From NCBI RefSeq assembly GCF_050920415.1, contig NZ_CP169309.1: a stretch of DNA of 64,000 nt. The stretch is one strand, 5' to 3'. Below the pieces are notes generated by a model. It was given only the letters and a program-made list of their open reading frames with translations, was not told where the DNA came from and made no database searches. This stretch comes from Escherichia coli. Lineage in GTDB: Bacteria; Pseudomonadota; Gammaproteobacteria; Enterobacterales; Enterobacteriaceae. Position numbers and translations under genes: made by a program. Each line of letters starts with the position of its first letter. Positions within the stretch are counted from its first letter, which is position 1. Shown here one piece after another: positions 34,948 to 42,527 of this stretch.

Positions 34948-35220
34948 ATGTTGACCGTAGACGTAGCCGCCGACATTGTCGCCAGCGGCATTAAAGTAGT
35001 GATTTTGCTGGTTTCGGTACTGGTGGTGCCAAGCCTGCTCGTTGGCCTGCTGGTGAGCGTGTTCCAGGCAGTGACGCAGATTAATGAGCAGACACTGAGC
35101 TTTTTACCGAGGCTGATTGTCACGCTGGTGGTGCTGGGGGTGTGCGGTAAATGGATGATTATCCAGTTGCATGATCTCTGCATTCATCTGTTTACCCAGG
35201 CCGCGTTGCTGGTGCATTAA
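34948..35220 (+). CDS. lfiQ: Flagellar export apparatus protein FliQ-like
   Basis: 90 aa, two hydrophobic helices (…FQAVTQINEQTLSFLPRLIV…). Confidence 0.85.
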   Translation: MLTVDVAADIVASGIKVVILLVSVLVVPSLLVGLLVSVFQAVTQINEQTLSFLPRLIVTLVVLGVCGKWMIIQLHDLCIHLFTQAALLVH

Positions 35221-35221
35221 G

Positions 35222-36004
35222 ATGCGCACAAGCGACGTTACGCAACTGATGGATCTGGCGCTGGGGCTGTGGTTTCCCTTCGTGCGCATTATGGCGTTTC
35301 TGCGCTATGTGCCGGTGCTGGATAACAGCGCCCTGACCGTGCGCGTGCGGATTATTTTGTCGCTGGCGCTGGCAATCATCATCACGCCGTTGATCCCCCA
35401 TCCCATTCCCCACGACCTGCTTTCGCTCAATAGCCTGATCCTGACGGTGGAGCAAATTTTATGGGGCATGTTATTCGGGCTGATTTTTCAGTTCCTGTTT
35501 CTGGCGCTACAGCTGGCCGGGCAAATTCTCTCGTTCAATATGGGGATGAGCATGGCGGTGATGAACGACCCGAGCAGCGGCGCATCGACCACCGTACTGG
35601 CGGAGCTAATCAACGTTTACGCGATCCTGCTGTTTTTTGCCATGGACGGGCATCTGCTGCTGGTGAGCGTGTTGTACAAGGGCTTCACCTACTGGCCGAT
35701 TGGCAACGCCCTGCATCCGCAAACCCTGCGCACCATCGCGCTGGCCTTTAGCTGGGTGCTGGCGTCGGCATCGCTGCTTGCGCTGCCGACCACTTTTATC
35801 ATGCTGATTGTGCAGGGCTGCTTTGGCCTGCTCAACCGCATTGCGCCGCCGCTGAATCTCTTTTCACTTGGCTTTCCCATCAACATGCTGGCAGGGCTGG
35901 TCTGTTTTGCCACCCTGCTCTACAACCTGCCGGATCACTATCTGCATCTGGCGAATTTTGTGTTGCAGCAGCTCGACGCGCTGAAAGGTCACTATGGCGG
36001 ATAG
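35222..36004 (+). CDS. lfiR: Flagellar export apparatus protein FliR-like
   Basis: Start taken at the ATG just after the fliQ stop (MRTSDVTQLMDLALGLWFPF…), 260 aa, polytopic membrane protein. Confidence 0.8.
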   Translation: MRTSDVTQLMDLALGLWFPFVRIMAFLRYVPVLDNSALTVRVRIILSLALAIIITPLIPHPIPHDLLSLNSLILTVEQILWGMLFGLIFQFLFLALQLAGQILSFNMGMSMAVMNDPSSGASTTVLAELINVYAILLFFAMDGHLLLVSVLYKGFTYWPIGNALHPQTLRTIALAFSWVLASASLLALPTTFIMLIVQGCFGLLNRIAPPLNLFSLGFPINMLAGLVCFATLLYNLPDHYLHLANFVLQQLDALKGHYGG

Positions 36005-37133
36005 CAGCAGCGAAGAAAAAACAGAGAAACCTTCGGCGCAAAAGCTGCGTAAAGCGCGTGAAGAGGGACAACTGCCGCGCTCGAAGGATATGGGGCTGGC
36101 GGCGAGCCTGTTTGCGGCGTTTGTGGTGATCTCCAGCAGCTTCCCGTGGTATGCCGATTTTGTACGCGAGAGTTTTATCAGCGTGCATCAGTACGCGCAG
36201 GAGATTAATAACCCGGACGTTATCGGCCAGTTTCTGCGCCATCACCTGTTAATTCTCGGCAAGTTTATTCTCACCTTGCTGCCGATGCCCGCCGCCGCAC
36301 TGCTCTCCTCACTGGTGCCTGGCGGCTGGCTGTTCTTGCCGAAAAAAATCCTCCCGGATTTCAGCAAAATCAGTCCGTTAAAAGGCATTGGACGGCTGTT
36401 CTCCAGTGAACATCTTGCGGAAACAGGCAAGATGACGGCGAAGTCGGTGGTGGTGCTGGTGATGCTGTGGATTAGCCTGCGCAATAACTTTGCCGCCTTT
36501 CTCGGCCTGCAGGCGCTGCCGTTCAAACTGGCGATGAATGAGGGTTTGTCGCTCTACGCCAGCGTGATGCGCAACTTTGTCATCCTGTTTATTTTCTTCG
36601 CGCTTATCGACGTGCCGCTGGCGAAAGCCCTGTTCACCAAAGGGCTGAAGATGACTAAGCAGGAGCTGAAAGAAGAGTACAAAAATCAGGAGGGCAAGCC
36701 GGAAGTGAAAGCGCGTGTGCGGCGGCTGCAACGGCAGCTGGCGATGGGGCAAATCCGCAAAGTGGTGCCGAAAGCCAACGTGGTGATCACCAACCCGACC
36801 CACTACGCCGTGGCGTTGCAGTATGACCAGTCGCGCGCCGCCGCGCCGTTTGTAGTGGCAAAAGGTACCGATGAAATCGCCCTCTATATTCGTCAGGTCG
36901 CCACTGAAAATCAGGTGGAAGTGGTCGAGTTCCCGCGGCTGGCGCGCTCGGTTTACTACACCACCCAGGTGAACCAACAAATTCCGTTTCAGCTTTACCG
37001 GGCCATCGCCCACGTTCTGACCTACGTCCTGCAAATGAAACACTGGCGCGAGGGCGCACAGCCGCGCCCGGCCCTGAACAGACATATTTCCATTCCCAAA
37101 GAGGTGCTTAAACTGGATGGCGAAAACAACTAA
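35994..37133 (+). CDS. lfhB: Flagellar export switch protein FlhB-like
   Basis: 379 aa; N-terminal …EKTEKPSAQKLRKAREEGQLPRSKD… and the autocleavage NPTH motif (…VVITNPTHYAVAL…). Confidence 0.9.
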   Translation: MADSSSEEKTEKPSAQKLRKAREEGQLPRSKDMGLAASLFAAFVVISSSFPWYADFVRESFISVHQYAQEINNPDVIGQFLRHHLLILGKFILTLLPMPAAALLSSLVPGGWLFLPKKILPDFSKISPLKGIGRLFSSEHLAETGKMTAKSVVVLVMLWISLRNNFAAFLGLQALPFKLAMNEGLSLYASVMRNFVILFIFFALIDVPLAKALFTKGLKMTKQELKEEYKNQEGKPEVKARVRRLQRQLAMGQIRKVVPKANVVITNPTHYAVALQYDQSRAAAPFVVAKGTDEIALYIRQVATENQVEVVEFPRLARSVYYTTQVNQQIPFQLYRAIAHVLTYVLQMKHWREGAQPRPALNRHISIPKEVLKLDGENN

Positions 37134-39210
37134 ATCGTTCCTCGCGCTGCTGCGCGGCGGTAATCTCGGCGTACCGCTGGTGATCCTGTGTATTCTGGCG
37201 ATGGTTATTCTGCCGCTGCCACCTGCGCTGCTGGATATTCTGTTCACCTTCAACATTGTGCTGGCGGTGATGGTGCTGCTGGTGGCGGTGTCGGCGAAAC
37301 GACCGCTGGAATTCAGCCTGTTCCCGACCATTTTGCTGATCACCACCTTAATGCGCCTGACGCTCAACGTTGCTTCTACGCGCGTGGTGCTGCTGCACGG
37401 GCATCTCGGCGCGGGCGCGGCGGGTAAGGTGATTGAGTCGTTTGGTCAGGTGGTGATTGGCGGCAACTTTGTCGTCGGTTTCGTGGTGTTTATCATCCTG
37501 ATGATCATCAACTTTATCGTCGTCACCAAAGGGGCCGAGCGTATTTCCGAGGTTTCTGCCCGCTTTACCCTGGACGCGATGCCCGGCAAACAGATGGCGA
37601 TTGACGCCGATCTTAACGCCGGGTTGATCAACCAGGCGCAGGCGCAGACCCGCCGCAAAGATGTTGCCAGCGAGGCCGATTTCTACGGCGCAATGGACGG
37701 GGCATCGAAATTTGTGCGCGGGGATGCCATCGCCGGGATGATGATTCTGGCGATCAACCTGATTGGCGGCGTTTGTATCGGGATCTTCAAATACAACCTG
37801 AGCGCCAATGCCGCCTTCCAGCAGTATGTCCTGATGACCATTGGTGACGGGCTGGTAGCGCAGATCCCTTCCCTGCTGCTCTCTACCGCGGCAGCGATTA
37901 TCGTCACCCGCGTCAGCGACAACGGCGATATCGCCCATGATGTGCGCCACCAGCTGCTGGCAAGCCCGTCGGTGCTCTACACCGCCACCGGGATTATGTT
38001 CGTGCTGGCGGTGGTGCCGGGAATGCCGCACTTCCCGTTCCTGATGTTCAGCGCCCTGCTTGGTTTTACCGGCTGGCGAATGAGCAAACGCCCGCAGGCG
38101 GCGGAGGCGGAAGAGAAAAGCCTCGAAACGCTGACCCGCACCATCACCGAAACCAGCGAGCAACAGGTCAGTTGGGAAACCATTCCGCTGATCGAGCCCA
38201 TTAGTTTAAGCCTCGGTTACAAGCTGGTGGCGCTGGTGGACAAAGCGCAGGGTAATCCGCTCACCCAGCGGATTCGCGGCGTGCGGCAGGTGATTTCCGA
38301 CGGCAACGGCGTGCTGCTGCCGGAGATCCGCATTCGGGAAAATTTCCGCCTCAAGCCCAGCCAGTACGCCATTTTCATCAACGGCATTAAGGCTGATGAA
38401 GCGGATATTCCGGCGGATAAGCTGATGGCTCTGCCCTCCAGCGAAACCTACGGCGAGATTGACGGCGTGCTGGGGAACGACCCGGCGTATGGGATGCCGG
38501 TGACCTGGATTCAGCCCGCGCAGAAGGCGAAGGCGCTGAATATGGGGTATCAGGTGATCGACAGCGCCAGCGTAATTGCCACACATGTGAATAAGATTGT
38601 GCGCAGCTATATTCCTGATTTGTTTAACTATGACGATATTACTCAGCTGCATAACCGTTTGTCGTCGATGGCACCGCGCCTGGCGGAGGATTTGAGTGCG
38701 GCGCTGAATTACAGCCAGTTGCTGAAAGTGTACCGGGCACTGCTGACCGAAGGCGTTTCCCTGCGCGATATCGTCACCATCGCCACCGTGCTGGTCGCCA
38801 GTAGTACCGTCACCAAAGATCATATTCTGCTGGCGGCCGATGTGCGCCTGGCACTGCGGCGCAGCATTACCCATCCGTTCGTTCGCAAGCAGGAGCTGAC
38901 GGTGTATACGCTGAATAATGAGCTGGAAAACCTGCTGACCAACGTGGTGAATCAGGCGCAACAGGCTGGCAAAGTGATGCTCGATAGCGTGCCGGTGGAC
39001 CCGAATATGCTCAACCAGTTCCAGAACACGATGCCGCAGGTGAAGGAGCAGATGAAAGCCGCAGGTAAAGACCCGGTGCTGCTGGTGCCGCCGCAGCTGC
39101 GCCCATTGCTGGCGCGTTATGCGAAGTTGTTTGCGCCGGGGTTGCATGTGCTGTCGTATAACGAAGTGCCGGACGAGCTGGAGTTGAAGATTATGGGGGC
39201 GTTGAGTTGA
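37117..39210 (+). CDS. lfhA: Flagellar export gate protein FlhA-like
   Basis: 697 aa; conserved N-terminal membrane domain (…FPTILLITTLMRLTLNVASTR…) and large cytoplasmic C-terminal domain. Confidence 0.9.
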   Translation: MAKTTKSFLALLRGGNLGVPLVILCILAMVILPLPPALLDILFTFNIVLAVMVLLVAVSAKRPLEFSLFPTILLITTLMRLTLNVASTRVVLLHGHLGAGAAGKVIESFGQVVIGGNFVVGFVVFIILMIINFIVVTKGAERISEVSARFTLDAMPGKQMAIDADLNAGLINQAQAQTRRKDVASEADFYGAMDGASKFVRGDAIAGMMILAINLIGGVCIGIFKYNLSANAAFQQYVLMTIGDGLVAQIPSLLLSTAAAIIVTRVSDNGDIAHDVRHQLLASPSVLYTATGIMFVLAVVPGMPHFPFLMFSALLGFTGWRMSKRPQAAEAEEKSLETLTRTITETSEQQVSWETIPLIEPISLSLGYKLVALVDKAQGNPLTQRIRGVRQVISDGNGVLLPEIRIRENFRLKPSQYAIFINGIKADEADIPADKLMALPSSETYGEIDGVLGNDPAYGMPVTWIQPAQKAKALNMGYQVIDSASVIATHVNKIVRSYIPDLFNYDDITQLHNRLSSMAPRLAEDLSAALNYSQLLKVYRALLTEGVSLRDIVTIATVLVASSTVTKDHILLAADVRLALRRSITHPFVRKQELTVYTLNNELENLLTNVVNQAQQAGKVMLDSVPVDPNMLNQFQNTMPQVKEQMKAAGKDPVLLVPPQLRPLLARYAKLFAPGLHVLSYNEVPDELELKIMGALS

Positions 39211-39241
39211 TTGAGGATTCTTTTCCATACTTTGCAGCACC

Positions 39242-39302
39242 TGACACCATTAATTGACGTCACACTGCAAAGAGACTACGATGACACCATACAATGACGT
39301 CA
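39242..39302 (+). promoter_or_regulatory. Two direct copies of a 21-bp palindrome-containing motif plus a sigma-70-like promoter upstream of the HicA-like gene (candidate operator)
   Basis: tgacaccattaattgacgtca (39242-39262) and tgacaccatacaatgacgtca (39282-39302), each with TGACGTCA; -35 TTGACG at 39254-39259 and -10-like TACGAT at 39277-39282 (17-bp spacer). The second copy overlaps the -10 and ORF start. Confidence 0.45.
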
Positions 39303-39593
39303 TGGATTGATAGTATGATTAAGGTCAGCGCGCTAGGCTCTCGTCATAGAAAAACATTCGACGATGTAATGACGGAGCCGCCAAAATCTGGAATTAAATG
39401 GGATGATGTTGTTGCTCTCATTAAAGCGGTGGGTGGATCAATAAAAAATAACAACGGCTCCAGACGAAAATTTCAGATTGGAACGACCAAATTCAGCACA
39501 CATGAGCCGCATCCAAAGAATGTGATGGATAAAGGCGCAGTAGCAGGTCTTAAGGAGTGGTTTGTTAACTGTGTAGGGGTAGATTATGAATAA
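39294..39593 (+). CDS. HicA-like toxin (mRNA interferase family), putative
   Basis: 99-aa ORF (alternative start 39315); C-terminal half (…NGSRRKFQIGTTKFSTHEPHPKNVMDKGAVAGLKEW…) resembles the HicA pattern as I recall it; 8-nt overlap with the downstream gene. Confidence 0.45.
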   Translation: MTSWIDSMIKVSALGSRHRKTFDDVMTEPPKSGIKWDDVVALIKAVGGSIKNNNGSRRKFQIGTTKFSTHEPHPKNVMDKGAVAGLKEWFVNCVGVDYE

Positions 39594-39942
39594 AGCATCG
39601 AACATTATCACAATTAAAGGTCAACCAGCCGCAGTGACATTTGAAGCCGATATCAACGCATTTCGCGGCAAGTTCCTCAATGTAAACGGTTATTGTGACT
39701 TTGTAGCCACAAGTATTGAGGCATTATATCGTGAAGGCGAAAGCGCTCTGGATGAGTGGATGGCGGATTGTGAAGAGGACGGTATTGCCCCTTTTCGTGA
39801 AGAAGAAGAGCAAAAACGCCTGACGCTTCGTGTGCCGCATCACATCGATTCGCGGCTGACCATCGTCGCCAGACAACATTCCATTTCAAAAAACCAGCTC
39901 ATTATTGATGTCTTAGAACGTGAGTTTTCAGCCCAGATGTAA
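39586..39942 (+). CDS. HicB-like antitoxin with C-terminal ribbon-helix-helix, putative
   Basis: 118 aa; N-terminal HicB/UPF0150-like region and C-terminal RHH-like segment (…KRLTLRVPHHIDSRLTIVARQHSISKNQLIIDVLEREF…). Confidence 0.55.
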   Translation: MNKASNIITIKGQPAAVTFEADINAFRGKFLNVNGYCDFVATSIEALYREGESALDEWMADCEEDGIAPFREEEEQKRLTLRVPHHIDSRLTIVARQHSISKNQLIIDVLEREFSAQM

Positions 39943-39998
39943 ACAGGTCGGATGCCGCGTGGCATCCGACCTGTTGCCAGTTCGTCAATATTACCCAT

Positions 39999-40757
39999 TT
40001 ACAAAATCGTCTCTTCCGTCAAAATCCGCCGCGCGCCTAAAAAATGATCCTGCCAGAAAGGTTCAGCTAACCGACTTACCCGAATGGTTTCCCCGGTGCG
40101 CGGCGACTCGATAAACTGACCGTCTCCCAGATACACGCCCATATGGTCGGCAATCTCGCGGCTGTGAATATGGAAAAACAGCAAATCTCCCCGGCGCAGG
40201 TCGTTATTTGCCACAATGGTTGCCCGACGGTAGTGATACATCTCATTGGCCGTGCGCGGGAGTTTCGCCTCGAGGATCTTGTTGTAGGCATAAAAAACCA
40301 ACCCGCTACAGTCGAAGCCTTGATCGGGTCGCGTGCCACCCCAGACGTATGGCTTGCCAAGCTGCTGCTCCAGACGGTGAATCGCCACTTCGGTGATATT
40401 ATGCAGGTGGTTACTGCTGAGGAAATGATTGTTTTCCGCCAGCGCCTGCCAGCGTCTGTCACTCGCCTTGAGCGGCGCAGGAAACCATTCTGGATGCTGT
40501 TTTATCTGTTCGCGGTTGTGTTGCCGCAGTGCCCTTCTGCTTTCGGCATTGCCTTCCACAATATAGCTGGCCTGCTTTTTCAGATGAATTTGGTACTGTT
40601 TTAATAAACGCGCACGGTTTTGCATCCGCTGGCGGGCGGCGTAGCTGAAAGAGATATGTGATGTGGTGGCGCTGGCGAGTAAAGGGAGCAAAACGCATAA
40701 CGAAAACACGCCTGGATGCAGAAATCTGCCGAGCAAGAACGAAGACATGAAGGACAT
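39999..40757 (-). CDS. yafL: NlpC/P60-family lipoprotein peptidase YafL
   Basis: 252 aa; signal sequence and NlpC/P60 catalytic Cys motif (…GFDCSGLVFYAY…) with downstream His. Alternative start 40748. Confidence 0.8.
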   Translation of the reverse strand: MSFMSSFLLGRFLHPGVFSLCVLLPLLASATTSHISFSYAARQRMQNRARLLKQYQIHLKKQASYIVEGNAESRRALRQHNREQIKQHPEWFPAPLKASDRRWQALAENNHFLSSNHLHNITEVAIHRLEQQLGKPYVWGGTRPDQGFDCSGLVFYAYNKILEAKLPRTANEMYHYRRATIVANNDLRRGDLLFFHIHSREIADHMGVYLGDGQFIESPRTGETIRVSRLAEPFWQDHFLGARRILTEETIL

Positions 40758-41048
40758 AAACCGGCTGAATGAAGGTGAGAATTTTAAAAGACCGGAGGAG
40801 TAAACGGGATTATTAATTGCTTATTTGCATATTACTATTGAGGTTTCATAATCTTAGGAAATAAATGATACATGCGCTTTTCGGACTAATGAAAACTGCC
40901 CTTGTGCTAAATTTGTAAACCCTGCGCCGACAGGCTTGCGTAAAACTCTTTTGGTGATAATGTGAGCCTTCCAAATCCAGACTATTCCGATTTGGGATCC
41001 ATTTTGCCGTCCTGGCGTGTGTAACCGTTTTATCAAGGAATAAGCAGT

Positions 41049-41789
41049 ATGCGTAAAATCGCATTAATTCTTGCGATGTTGTTGATCCCGTGCGTTTCGT
41101 TTGCCGGTTTGCTGGGCAGCAGTAGCTCGACCACGCCAGTGAGCAAAGAGTATAAGCAGCAGTTGATGGGATCCCCTGTCTACATCCAGATCTTCAAGGA
41201 AGAACGTACGCTCGATCTCTACGTCAAAATGGGCGAGCAATATCAGCTGCTCGACAGTTATAAAATCTGTAAATATTCCGGCGGCTTAGGGCCAAAACAG
41301 CGTCAGGGCGATTTCAAAAGCCCGGAAGGGTTTTATAGCGTCCAGCGTAATCAGTTAAAACCAGACAGCCGTTACTACAAAGCGATTAATATTGGTTTCC
41401 CCAATGCCTATGACCGTGCGCATGGTTATGAAGGGAAATACCTGATGATCCACGGCGATTGTGTTTCCATCGGCTGCTACGCAATGACCAATCAAGGTAT
41501 TGATGAGATCTTCCAGTTCGTTACTGGTGCGCTGGTGTTTGGTCAGCCGAGCGTGCAAGTGAGTATTTACCCGTTCCGCATGACCGACGCCAATATGAAG
41601 CGCCATAAATATTCCAACTTTAAGGACTTCTGGGAGCAACTGAAGCCGGGTTACGACTACTTTGAACAGACCCGTAAGCCACCGACCGTTTCTGTGGTCA
41701 ATGGCCGTTACGTGGTCAGCAAGCCGTTAAGCCACGAAGTTGTGCAGCCACAACTGGCATCAAACTACACGCTCCCCGAGGCAAAATAA
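41049..41789 (+). CDS. yafK: L,D-transpeptidase-fold periplasmic protein YafK
   Basis: 246 aa; signal peptide and YkuD-like domain (…[18 protein letters not shown]…). Confidence 0.85.
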
Positions 41790-42527
41790 GCGCCATTCGC
41801 CTGGCATAATCTTTTGCCAGGTTTCATTGCCCGTCAGCGGCTGTGTCGCAATCACCGTGACCACATCATTCGGTGTGGTCTGCGAGCTGAAGTCGATTTC
41901 CACATCCTGATCCAGCAACGTTGCCACGCCAAACGGCGCGCGGCGGGTGATCCAGTGTAAATTAGTCGAGCAATACGCCATTACATAGCGCCCGTCAGAA
42001 AGCAGCATGTTGAAAACGCCCTTCTGCCGCAGTTCATCCGCCAGTGAGGCGATATATTTAAACACTGCCGCCATGTTGCCCGGTGTGCGTGGGTAACGCT
42101 GCGTTAATTTATGCAGCAGCCAGCAAAAGGCTTTTTCGCTGTCGGTTTCACCTACCGGGCGGAAGTTGCCGGTTTCCAGTGACTTGTACCCCGTCAGTTG
42201 CCCGTTATGGGCATAAGTCCAGTTGCGTCCCCATAACTCGCGGGTAAACGGATGAGTATTTTCCAGTGCCACCTCGCCCCGATTCGCCTGGCGAATATGA
42301 GCAATTACCGAGCAGGATTTGATTGGATAGTCCTGGACCAGTTTAGCGATAGGGGAATTAAAGCTGGGTTGCGGATCTTTAAATGTGCGACAGCCTTTAC
42401 CTTCGTAAAAGGTAATGCCCCAGCCATCTTTATGTGGCCCGGTTCCACCACCACGCTGCACCAGACCGGTGAAACTAAAGCAGATATCGGTAGGGACGTT
42501 AGCGCTCATCCCGAGCAATTCGCACAT
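41760..42527 (-). CDS. yafJ: Class II glutamine amidotransferase-like protein YafJ
   Basis: Starts [10 protein letters not shown]… (Cys2 nucleophile typical of class II GATase), 255 aa; convergent 30-nt overlap with yafK. Confidence 0.85.

What the first reader, a model, noticed from the sequence alone, without database searches (positions are those of the whole stretch)
39229..39942. HicAB-like toxin-antitoxin pair with duplicated operator-like motif, at a junction where K-12 has other genes
Two overlapping small ORFs (HicA-like then HicB-like with an RHH tail) are preceded by two direct copies of TGACACCAT-N4-TGACGTCA around a sigma-70-like promoter, a layout expected for antitoxin autoregulation. 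In K-12 this side of yafL carries rayT, and the dinJ-yafQ pair lies between yafK and yafL. Here the yafL-yafK gap (40758-41048) is only ~290 bp, so dinJ-yafQ are absent and a different TA pair is found nearby.
Basis: partly seen in the sequence, partly recalled or inferred. Interest (0 to 1): 0.45.

Follow-up and report, generated by a model that had tools for sequence, protein, structure and literature searches.

The report
Accessory HicAB toxin-antitoxin pair in E. coli
This is an untested but already annotated HicA/HicB toxin-antitoxin gene pair, carried by about a quarter of E. coli strains, with a conserved four-box operator in its promoter and a toxin that lacks the histidine essential in every HicA studied so far.

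Summary
hicA (39315-39593, 92 aa; the conserved start is 39315, not 39294) overlaps hicB (39586-39942, 118 aa) by 8 nt. Two 21-bp motif copies (39242-39262, 39282-39302) straddle a TTGACG-17-TACGAT promoter.

The motif copies are four TGACGTCA-like boxes at -73, -60, -33 and -20 from the hicA ATG. This layout recurs upstream of homologous pairs in eight other genomic contexts, and the box sequence changes with the HicB RHH clade. That supports HicB autorepression.

The K-12 comparison holds: rayT plus REP repeats replace 39206-39999, and dinJ-yafQ replace 40685-40908. However, the two polymorphisms are independent. Most hicAB-positive genomes also carry dinJ-yafQ.

The toxin belongs to an uncharacterised long HicA subfamily. 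The catalytic His at the start of strand beta2 is Arg (GSR), a His-x-Pro-His-Pro motif is nearly invariant, and there is an extra N-terminal helix.

Verdict: an ordinary accessory toxin-antitoxin module with a modestly interesting toxin variant. Toxicity is untested.

The parts
39242..39262 (+). Operator O1: box 1 TGACACCA (39242-39249) and box 2 TGACGTCA (39255-39262). It overlaps the -35 hexamer.
   Evidence: The boxes lie at -73 and -60 from the hicA ATG, as in the homologous loci.
39254..39282 (+). Sigma-70-like promoter: TTGACG (39254-39259), 17-nt spacer, TACGAT (39277-39282).
   Evidence: Relatives have a -10-like hexamer at the same aligned position, for example TATAAT in L006 and L023.
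39282..39302 (+). Operator O2: box 3 TGACACCA (39282-39289) and box 4 TGACGTCA (39295-39302). It runs from the last base of the -10 across the expected transcription start into the leader.
   Evidence: The boxes lie at -33 and -20 from the ATG, as in the homologous loci.
39315..39593 (+). hicA-like gene, 92 aa (WP_000598759.1). It belongs to a long HicA subfamily with an extra N-terminal helix, G48-S49-R50 where canonical HicA has G-x-H, and H63-x-P65-H66-P67.
39586..39942 (+). hicB-like gene, 118 aa (WP_001030482.1). [quoted passage not shown]
39942..39975 (.). Perfect 15-bp-stem hairpin between the convergent hicB and yafL genes. It is terminator-like, with only a weak U tract on either strand.
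   Evidence: repeat I1. One search gives -31.3 kcal/mol and z -6.0. One search shows it is unique in the window.
39206..39999 (.). The whole slot between the lfhA stop and the yafL stop. In K-12 it is occupied by rayT plus REP repeats, and in Nissle 1917 by an array of three REP-containing repeats (BIME-like).
40685..40908 (.). yafL 5' end plus the yafL-yafK intergenic segment, with no K-12 counterpart. K-12 has yafQ-dinJ and a different yafL 5' end here.

Best explanation
A chromosomal, strain-variable type II toxin-antitoxin operon of the hicAB kind, with the toxin gene first and an antitoxin carrying a C-terminal RHH. This is Class 4 in Gerdes' 2024 scheme.

Transcription starts from the TTGACG-17-TACGAT promoter. 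hicA and hicB are translationally coupled through the 8-nt overlap. HicB is inferred to do two things. Its N-terminal partial RNase H-like domain sequesters HicA. Its RHH dimers bind the four TGACGTCA-like boxes, two over the -35 and two over the -10/+1/leader, and so shut off the operon's own promoter.

[quoted passage not shown] It belongs to a subfamily in which the canonical catalytic His at the start of strand beta2 is Arg (R50). By strand register, the nearly invariant H63 at the end of beta3 is the cross-strand neighbour of R50. H63, possibly together with H66, is therefore the best candidate to supply the missing catalytic histidine.

Shown here: homology, fold, gene layout, motif conservation and population distribution. 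Inferred: toxicity, RNase chemistry, HicB-box binding and the biological role.
For: Family and fold:
- HicA_toxin is matched above Pfam's cut-off by the protein and by all 70 aligned relatives.
- The AlphaFold model has pLDDT 96, with helix 9-19 followed by an alpha-beta-beta-beta-alpha core.
- The HicB model has pLDDT 88. Its best Foldseek hits are B. pseudomallei HicB, Y. pestis HicB3 and E. coli HicB.
- The HicB C-terminal profile matches Arc and AmrZ at E of about 0.002-0.003.

Operator:
- The motif occurs twice against 0.01 expected.
- It overlaps the promoter hexamers.
- Boxes sit at about -73/-60/-33/-20 in eight other contexts: Leclercia-type loci L003/L005 next to higBA, L006/L008, Providencia-type L014, Brenneria L015, Serratia prophage L016, the E. 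coli Flag-2-deleted strain L011, Klebsiella L017 and Pantoea L023.
- In the divergent HicB clade (KTFTLRYPESFG...SVN) all four boxes of L016 read TGACTTCA instead of TGACGTCA.

Constraint on the toxin: across 150 representatives at no more than 50% mutual identity, G48, S49, H63, P65 and H66 are kept in 142-146 sequences.

Asymmetric decay: hicB is present in 1,479 genomes and hicA in 1,370. A hicB-only allele has hicA deleted. No excess of hicA over hicB is seen.

Precedent: Y. pestis HicB3 binds two operators flanking PhicA3, the main one over the -10 (review PMC11594946).
Against: No experiment exists for this pair or, as far as the searchable literature shows, for any member of its HicA subfamily.

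The His that is essential in Y. pestis, B. pseudomallei, E. coli K-12, S. pneumoniae and gonococcal HicA aligns with R50. It is never His in 150 representatives. The equivalent of H66 was dispensable in gonococcal HicA.

The Pfam score for HicA is only 2 bits above the cut-off. Single-sequence searches against PDB sequences and NCBIfam found nothing.

Boxes 1 and 3 in E. coli are degenerate (TGACACCA).

The R50-H63 adjacency is deduced from strand boundaries, not measured on coordinates.

The box/clade covariation rests on seven loci of one clade against two of the other.
Confidence: 0.72

Rival explanations
1. The HicA-like protein is not a toxin. It would be an RNA-binding or regulatory partner of HicB, and the pair would be a domesticated or decayed TA-like regulator, because the canonical catalytic His is gone.
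For: R50 replaces the His essential in all characterised HicAs. No defence or toxin model other than Pfam HicA_toxin matches. The locus is lost or replaced in about 73% of E. coli genomes with no sign of addiction.
Against: The subfamily is large: 634 representatives at E<=0.001. It keeps G48, S49, H63, P65 and H66 almost invariant, and all relatives examined here are paired with hicB. That level of constraint does not fit decay. The antitoxin-only allele and the frameshifted hicA copies next to intact hicB are the pattern expected when the upstream gene is harmful on its own.
Confidence: 0.15
2. The biological role of the module is anti-phage abortive infection or genome-island stabilisation rather than stress-induced growth control. 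The molecular mechanism would be the same as in the best explanation.
For: A 44%-identical relative sits inside a P2-like prophage between replication/methylase genes and the portal/terminase genes. The Leclercia relative is adjacent to a higBA pair. Related HicA proteins occur in Ralstonia and Burkholderia phages and on plasmids. Gerdes (PMC10865869) argues for a defence role of HicA modules in general.
Against: No PADLOC model matches. The E. coli slot lies between housekeeping-type genes with no mobile-element genes nearby. No phage data exist.
Confidence: 0.3
3. The TGACGTCA boxes are bound by a host factor, or are simply promoter sequence (TTGACG is the -35), and HicB does not recognise them.
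For: Box 2 supplies the -35 hexamer. TGACGTCA arrays with 13-bp period also occur in unrelated bacteria without hicAB.
Against: The four-box layout at fixed distances follows hicAB across genera and insertion sites, while the surrounding intergenic DNA does not align. All four boxes change together in the divergent HicB clade. Boxes 3 and 4 lie downstream of the -10, where no promoter element is needed.
Confidence: 0.08

Closest known systems
Yersinia pestis HicA3/HicB3 (PDB 4p78, 4p7d)
   Same: hicA lies upstream of hicB, and HicB has an N-terminal partial RNase H fold plus a C-terminal RHH. A single upstream promoter carries two operators, one of them over the -10 (review PMC11594946). The structures are among the best matches to both models.
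   Different: HicA3 is 66 aa with catalytic His28. Here the aligned residue is R50, and the protein has about 28 extra N-terminal residues that form a helix. Sequence identity is only 11-16%. The operator sequences are unrelated as far as is known.
Burkholderia pseudomallei HicAB (PDB 6g26, 4c26)
   Same: It is the best sequence-profile match (E 0.003) and the best Foldseek match for both proteins. It is an RHH-type HicB that binds a palindrome overlapping the -10.
   Different: Gly22 and His24 are essential there. Here Gly is kept (G48) but His is Arg. B. pseudomallei HicA has Thr where this subfamily has the near-invariant H63. It has one palindromic site rather than four boxes.
E. coli K-12 HicAB (yncN/ydcQ; PDB 6hpb, 6u0i)
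   Same: Same species, same gene order and same folds.
   Different: K-12 HicB uses a helix-turn-helix rather than an RHH, and the operon has two promoters. K-12 HicA is 58 aa with His23. The chromosomal locus is different. K-12 lacks the pair studied here and carries rayT in its place.
The paralogous E. coli hicAB next to nikR (HicB cluster P0274)
   Same: Same long HicA subfamily (GSR, HRPHP) and same HicB architecture. Its upstream region also has four boxes (TGACTTCA, TGATGTCA, TGATGTCA, TGAAGTCA). It is annotated HicA/HicB in 2,072 genomes, including O157:H7.
   Different: HicB identity is 45%, it belongs to the other RHH clade (KTFTLRYPES...SVN), and the box sequences differ. hicA is frameshifted in the copy examined.
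DinJ-YafQ (K-12 b0226/b0225)
   Same: It is a type II TA pair with an RHH antitoxin, lies one gene away in the same neighbourhood, and is likewise present or absent between strains.
   Different: The toxin fold is unrelated (RelE-type, ribosome-dependent) and the antitoxin gene comes first. It is absent from this window. Its presence is independent of hicAB.

Membership tests
HicA toxin family (Pfam PF07927) | Match to the family HMM above the curated cut-off | tested here: met
   29.1-29.4 bits against a cut-off of 27. All 70 aligned relatives also match, best E 1.4e-13. The margin for this protein is small.
HicA toxin family (Pfam PF07927) | alpha-beta-beta-beta-alpha dsRBD-like fold | tested here: met
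HicA toxin family (Pfam PF07927) | Catalytic His at the start of beta2 (G-x-H; His24 in B. pseudomallei and gonococcus, His28 in Y. pestis, His23 in E. coli) | tested here: not met
   The profile alignment to 6g26/4c26 and 4p78 places R50 at this position. Among 150 representatives it is Arg in 125 and never His.
HicA toxin family (Pfam PF07927) | Growth inhibition or RNase activity that is neutralised by the cognate HicB | not testable with these tools
   The only evidence is indirect: hicB-only alleles and frameshifted hicA copies beside intact hicB.
HicB antitoxin, RHH class (Gerdes Class 4 hicAB) | HicB family HMM match, with hicB immediately downstream of hicA | tested here: met
   PF05534 at 40.5 bits against a cut-off of 21. 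hicB overlaps hicA by 8 nt, and the same layout is seen in relatives.
HicB antitoxin, RHH class (Gerdes Class 4 hicAB) | N-terminal partial RNase H-like fold | tested here: met
   The model has strands 7-10, 13-20, 25-30 and 38-41, then helix 44-65. The best Foldseek hits are HicB structures 6g26 A/B, 4p7d, 4p78_A, 6u0i and 2dsy, with probability 0.9-1.0 but weak E-values of 0.02-0.3.
HicB antitoxin, RHH class (Gerdes Class 4 hicAB) | C-terminal ribbon-helix-helix DNA-binding domain | tested here: met
   Positions 74-116 of the HicB profile align with Arc (E 0.0023) and AmrZ (E 0.0032). T80 and R82 fall at the positions of Arc N11 and R13. Arc is also a structural hit.
HicB antitoxin, RHH class (Gerdes Class 4 hicAB) | Binds operators in its own promoter and represses it | not testable with these tools
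   Indirect support only: four conserved boxes over the -35 and the -10/+1, which co-vary with the RHH clade.
DinJ-YafQ toxin-antitoxin pair | Presence of dinJ-yafQ between yafK and yafL | tested here: not met
   No blastn hit of K-12 dinJ-yafQ anywhere in the window. The 291-bp gap matches the allele without dinJ-yafQ that 2,083 genomes share.
Catalogued anti-phage defence systems (PADLOC-DB 2.0) | Match to any defence-system protein model | tested here: not met
   No family at E<=1 for either protein.

The most novel reading that the evidence does not exclude
The long HicA subfamily is defined by GSR, HxPHP and an N-terminal helix, and has 634 or more representative clusters. It may be a mechanistically distinct toxin class. 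Either its catalytic His has moved from the start of beta2 to the cross-strand position at the end of beta3 (H63), with Arg taking the old site, or it inhibits growth without the canonical HicA RNase chemistry. Two copies in the E. coli pangenome, this one and the nikR-adjacent one, would make it easy to test.
Probability: 0.35. Interest if true: 0.45.

Novelty: new variant of a known kind. Interest (0 to 1): 0.3.

Why it matters
The locus is an ordinary strain-variable toxin-antitoxin (TA) module that RefSeq already labels HicA/HicB, so the basic identification adds little. Three points are worth keeping.

(1) The E. coli pangenome holds two hicAB loci of a large HicA subfamily that lacks the histidine essential in every HicA studied. 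If these proteins are toxic, the family's accepted catalytic picture is incomplete. The proposed H63/R50 swap can be tested with a handful of point mutants.

(2) The four-box TGACGTCA operator gives a ready-made, sequence-defined system for studying how tetrameric RHH-type HicB repressors read DNA. The same applies to its TGACTTCA variant in the sister clade.

(3) The lfhA-yafL and yafL-yafK gaps are two adjacent slots where unrelated cargo segregates independently. The first holds hicAB, hicB alone, rayT plus REPs or REP arrays, and the second holds dinJ-yafQ or nothing. This is a caution for anyone using K-12 as the reference for TA content.

Tried and rejected
Searches that found nothing:
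- Single-sequence phmmer of both proteins against PDB sequences gave no relevant hit. Profiles were needed (versus 26, 37).
- NCBIfam gave no meaningful hit.
- PADLOC gave none.
- Rfam on 38500-41500 at E<=1 gave none.
- Literature searches for the RefSeq protein accessions, for hicAB together with yafL/lfhA/rayT, and for Flag-2 together with antitoxin found no paper on this pair. The O157:H7 paper that mentions HicA/HicB cites only the K-12 hicAB papers and gives nothing on this pair.
- The three-box operator pattern has no match in viral contigs.

Readings rejected:
- Start codon ATG 39294 (the 99-aa form) is rejected. It lies inside box 4 and is not conserved, whereas ATG 39315 is.
- The 8-bp inverted repeat CTTTGCAG/CTGCAAAG around O1 (I6) has a downstream arm that is not conserved in relatives. 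It is treated as chance or lineage-specific.
- The idea that hicAB replaces dinJ-yafQ is rejected, because all four combinations occur.
- The idea that hicAB is linked to an intact Flag-2 cluster is rejected, because hicAB is present where Flag-2 is deleted.

Qualified result: the genome-contig scan for three perfect boxes returned 7 hits. Two are true hicAB promoters (Klebsiella, Pantoea). Five are 13-bp-period tandem arrays in unrelated taxa. The strict pattern is therefore neither sensitive nor fully specific.

P0033 could not be located on a contig.

Full report
**What is in the sequence**

The window is E. coli chromosome. Positions 39100-40100 are 100% identical to strain MFDS1022581. 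The local gene order is:
- fliR-, flhB- and flhA-like genes of an intact Flag-2 cluster (lfhA ends at 39210);
- a 92-aa ORF;
- a 118-aa ORF;
- yafL on the minus strand (39999-40757 by ORF listing);
- yafK/dpaA (41049-41789).

The mechanical ORF for the first small gene starts at 39294. RefSeq starts it at 39315. An alignment of the upstream regions of homologous loci shows that ATG 39315 and its AGGA-type ribosome-binding site are conserved, while ATG 39294 is not. The two genes overlap by 8 nt (ATGAATAA). The same overlap is seen in relatives.

The two 21-bp direct copies are at 39242-39262 and 39282-39302. The degenerate pattern occurs twice in 64 kb against 0.01 expected. A TTGACG-17-TACGAT promoter-like site lies at 39254-39282.

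**Identity of the proteins**

The first protein matches Pfam HicA_toxin at 29.1-29.4 bits (cut-off 27), over residues 29-77 of the 92-aa form. The second matches Pfam HicB at 40.5 bits (cut-off 21). Single-sequence searches against PDB sequences and NCBIfam found nothing useful, so I built profiles.

For the toxin:
- An exhaustive profile search found 634 representative proteins at E<=0.001.
- All 70 that I aligned match HicA_toxin.
- The profile reaches B. pseudomallei HicA at E 0.003 and Y. pestis HicA3 at E 0.13.
- The AlphaFold model is very confident (pLDDT 96). [quoted passage not shown]

For the antitoxin:
- The model has pLDDT 88.
- It consists of an N-terminal beta-sheet plus long helix, a linker, and two C-terminal helices.
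- Its best Foldseek matches are B. pseudomallei HicB, Y. pestis HicB3, E. coli HicB and TTHA0281, with Arc for the tail.
- The profile of 45 HicB relatives aligns positions 74-116 with the Arc and AmrZ ribbon-helix-helix (RHH) domains at E 0.002-0.003. The invariant T80 and R82 fall on Arc's N11 and R13 positions.

In Gerdes' classification this is a Class 4 hicAB operon: hicA first, HicB with a C-terminal RHH.

**The unusual point: the catalytic histidine**

In every characterised HicA, a His at the start of strand beta2, within a G-x-H motif, is essential. The examples are His28 in Y. pestis, His24 in B. pseudomallei and the gonococcus, His23 in E. coli K-12 and His36 in S. pneumoniae.

The profile alignments place R50 of this protein (G48-S49-R50) at that position. 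Among 150 representatives, none more than 50% identical to another, the position is Arg in 125 and never His. By contrast, G48 (145), S49 (146), H63 (142), P65 (142) and H66 (144) are almost invariant.

H66 corresponds to the PHP histidine of canonical HicAs, which was dispensable in the gonococcal protein. H63 is specific to this subfamily. B. pseudomallei HicA has Thr there.

The model's beta2 (50-55) and beta3 (58-63) form a hairpin. By strand register, R50 and H63 should therefore be cross-strand neighbours. This is my inference from the strand boundaries, because I could not measure coordinates.

The simplest reading is that the active-site His has moved to the neighbouring strand. The alternative is that the chemistry differs. 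Neither can be decided here. I found no paper on this subfamily.

**The operator**

The two 21-mers resolve into four 8-bp boxes at -73, -60, -33 and -20 from the hicA ATG. In E. coli, boxes 2 and 4 are the palindrome TGACGTCA, and boxes 1 and 3 are TGACACCA. Box 2 supplies the -35. Box 3 begins at the last base of the -10. Box 4 lies in the leader.

The same four-position layout, usually with perfect TGACGTCA, precedes homologous hicAB pairs in otherwise unrelated settings:
- a Leclercia-type locus next to higBA (L003/L005);
- a locus between kduI and a SIS-domain regulator gene (L006/L008);
- a Providencia-type locus (L014);
- Brenneria (L015);
- Klebsiella sp. (L017);
- Pantoea latae (L023);
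- an E. coli strain that has lost Flag-2 (L011).

These are documented. The surrounding intergenic DNA does not align.

In a Serratia relative, whose HicB is 44% identical and belongs to a different RHH clade (KTFTLRYPESFG...SVN against K[RS][LF]TLR...SKNQ), all four boxes read TGACTTCA. The second E. coli paralogue of that clade has TGACTTCA, TGATGTCA, TGATGTCA and TGAAGTCA.

Conservation of position, together with concerted change of sequence alongside the DNA-binding domain, is what an antitoxin operator should show. The sample is small, seven loci against two.

A reverse scan of 100,044 species genomes for three perfect boxes at this spacing returned seven places. Two are hicAB promoters. 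Five are 13-bp-period tandem arrays in unrelated phyla. The strict pattern is therefore not exclusive to hicAB.

The layout resembles Y. pestis hicA3B3, where a HicB3 tetramer binds two operators flanking the promoter and the one over the -10 dominates.

**The junction and the population**

Against K-12, homology ends five bases before the lfhA stop (window 39205) and resumes at the yafL stop (40000). K-12 carries rayT and its REP repeats in between. Homology breaks again at 40685-40908, where K-12 has yafQ-dinJ together with a different yafL 5' end.

| Element | Genomes, out of 5,426 complete E. coli genomes |
|---|---|
| hicA | 1,370 |
| hicB | 1,479 |
| rayT | 3,569 |
| dinJ-yafQ | 3,326 |
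| yafL-yafK junction of the window type (no dinJ-yafQ) | 2,083 |

An evenly spaced sample of 60 genomes shows all four combinations:

| Combination | Genomes in the sample |
|---|---|
| hicAB or hicB present, dinJ-yafQ absent (the window's type) | 4 |
| both present | 13 |
| neither present (for example Nissle 1917) | 18 |
| dinJ-yafQ only (K-12, O157:H7) | 24 |
| match to dpaA only, unclassified | 1 |

However, hicAB does not stand in for dinJ-yafQ, and most carriers have both.

hicAB is also independent of Flag-2, because it is present beside the lfhA'/lafU remnant in strain 2011C-4315. In Nissle 1917 the slot holds three REP-containing (BIME-like) repeats.

About 108 genomes carry a more divergent hicB-only allele. 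In it hicA is deleted, operator O1 is gone and O2 is kept. Loss of the toxin with retention of the antitoxin is the expected direction of decay for a harmful gene. This may be a single event.

**Other features**

A perfect 15-bp-stem hairpin follows the hicB stop at 39942-39975 (-31 kcal/mol, z -6). It has only a weak U tract, and it probably ends both convergent transcripts. Relatives have non-homologous hairpins in the same place. No Rfam family matches the region.

**Role**

The role is open. A defence or stabilisation role is suggested by several contexts: a relative inside a P2-like prophage, adjacency to higBA, and relatives in Ralstonia and Burkholderia phages and on plasmids. Against this, no PADLOC model matches, and the E. 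coli slot shows no mobile-element genes.

**Verdict**

It is also largely already captured by automated annotation, and it concerns a common accessory TA module.

What goes beyond the annotation is the defined four-box operator and the recognition that the toxin belongs to a large, uncharacterised HicA subfamily that fails the family's catalytic-His criterion. I rate it a new variant of a known kind, of modest interest (0.3).

Confidence is 0.72 that it is a functional HicB-autorepressed TA operon. The probability is about 0.35 that the toxin's chemistry is meaningfully different from canonical HicA.

Noticed in passing
L009 2915-3347 (E. coli Survcare321); corresponds to window 39206-39942: A hicB-only allele. 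hicA is deleted so that its ATG is fused a few codons ahead of hicB. Operator O1 is replaced, while O2 (TGACATCA...TGACGTCA) and the TACGAT -10 are kept. About 108 genomes carry this 90-95%-identity hicB class.
   Followed up: partly
L012/L013 2160-2860 (E. coli, between an ABC-2 transporter gene and nikR): A second hicAB of the same long-HicA subfamily, annotated HicA/HicB in 2,072 of 5,426 E. coli genomes including O157:H7. It has four variant boxes upstream, and hicA is frameshifted in the copy read.
   Followed up: partly
window 40685-40757 versus K-12 L002 6713-6776: The first ~70 nt of yafL, which encode its N-terminal signal-like region, are not homologous between the haplotypes with and without dinJ-yafQ. 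The indel therefore carries an alternative yafL 5' end. The annotated yafL length also differs (750 against 774 nt).
   Followed up: no
window 38503-42000 versus K-12: There is a sharp identity step. The yafK side is 98.8% identical to K-12, but yafL is 91.5% and the lfhA 3' end 93.7%. This suggests an old recombination boundary at the yafL-yafK gap.
   Followed up: no
L010 2720-3000 (E. coli Nissle 1917): The lfhA-yafL slot holds three tandem REP-containing (BIME-like) repeats, with neither hicAB nor rayT. The slot therefore has at least four allelic states.
   Followed up: partly
L016 1-5369 (Serratia, GCA_016076015.1): A hicAB relative sits inside a P2-like prophage, between a gpA-type replication gene plus a methyltransferase and the portal/terminase genes. 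Known P2-like prophages carry variable cargo genes at such positions (my recollection, not tested here).
   Followed up: no
L003/L005 3427-4138: The Leclercia-type hicAB lies directly beside a convergent higB-like/HTH antitoxin pair, so two TA modules are clustered.
   Followed up: no
window 39586-39942 (HicB residues C37 and C62): Two cysteines are invariant across 45 HicB relatives (GYCDF and DC motifs). A possible structural or redox role was not examined.
   Followed up: no
L018 429-475, L019 6554-6600, L020 470-516, L021 153-199, L022 1878-1926: Tandem arrays of TGACGTCA with a 13-bp period occur in Anaerobiospirillum, Streptacidiphilus, Bradyrhizobium and Bifidobacterium genomes without hicAB. 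Their meaning is unknown.
   Followed up: no
window 35171-39210: Intact lfiR/lfhB/lfhA-type genes show that the window carries the Flag-2 lateral-flagella cluster, which is reduced to pseudogene remnants in K-12.
   Followed up: no
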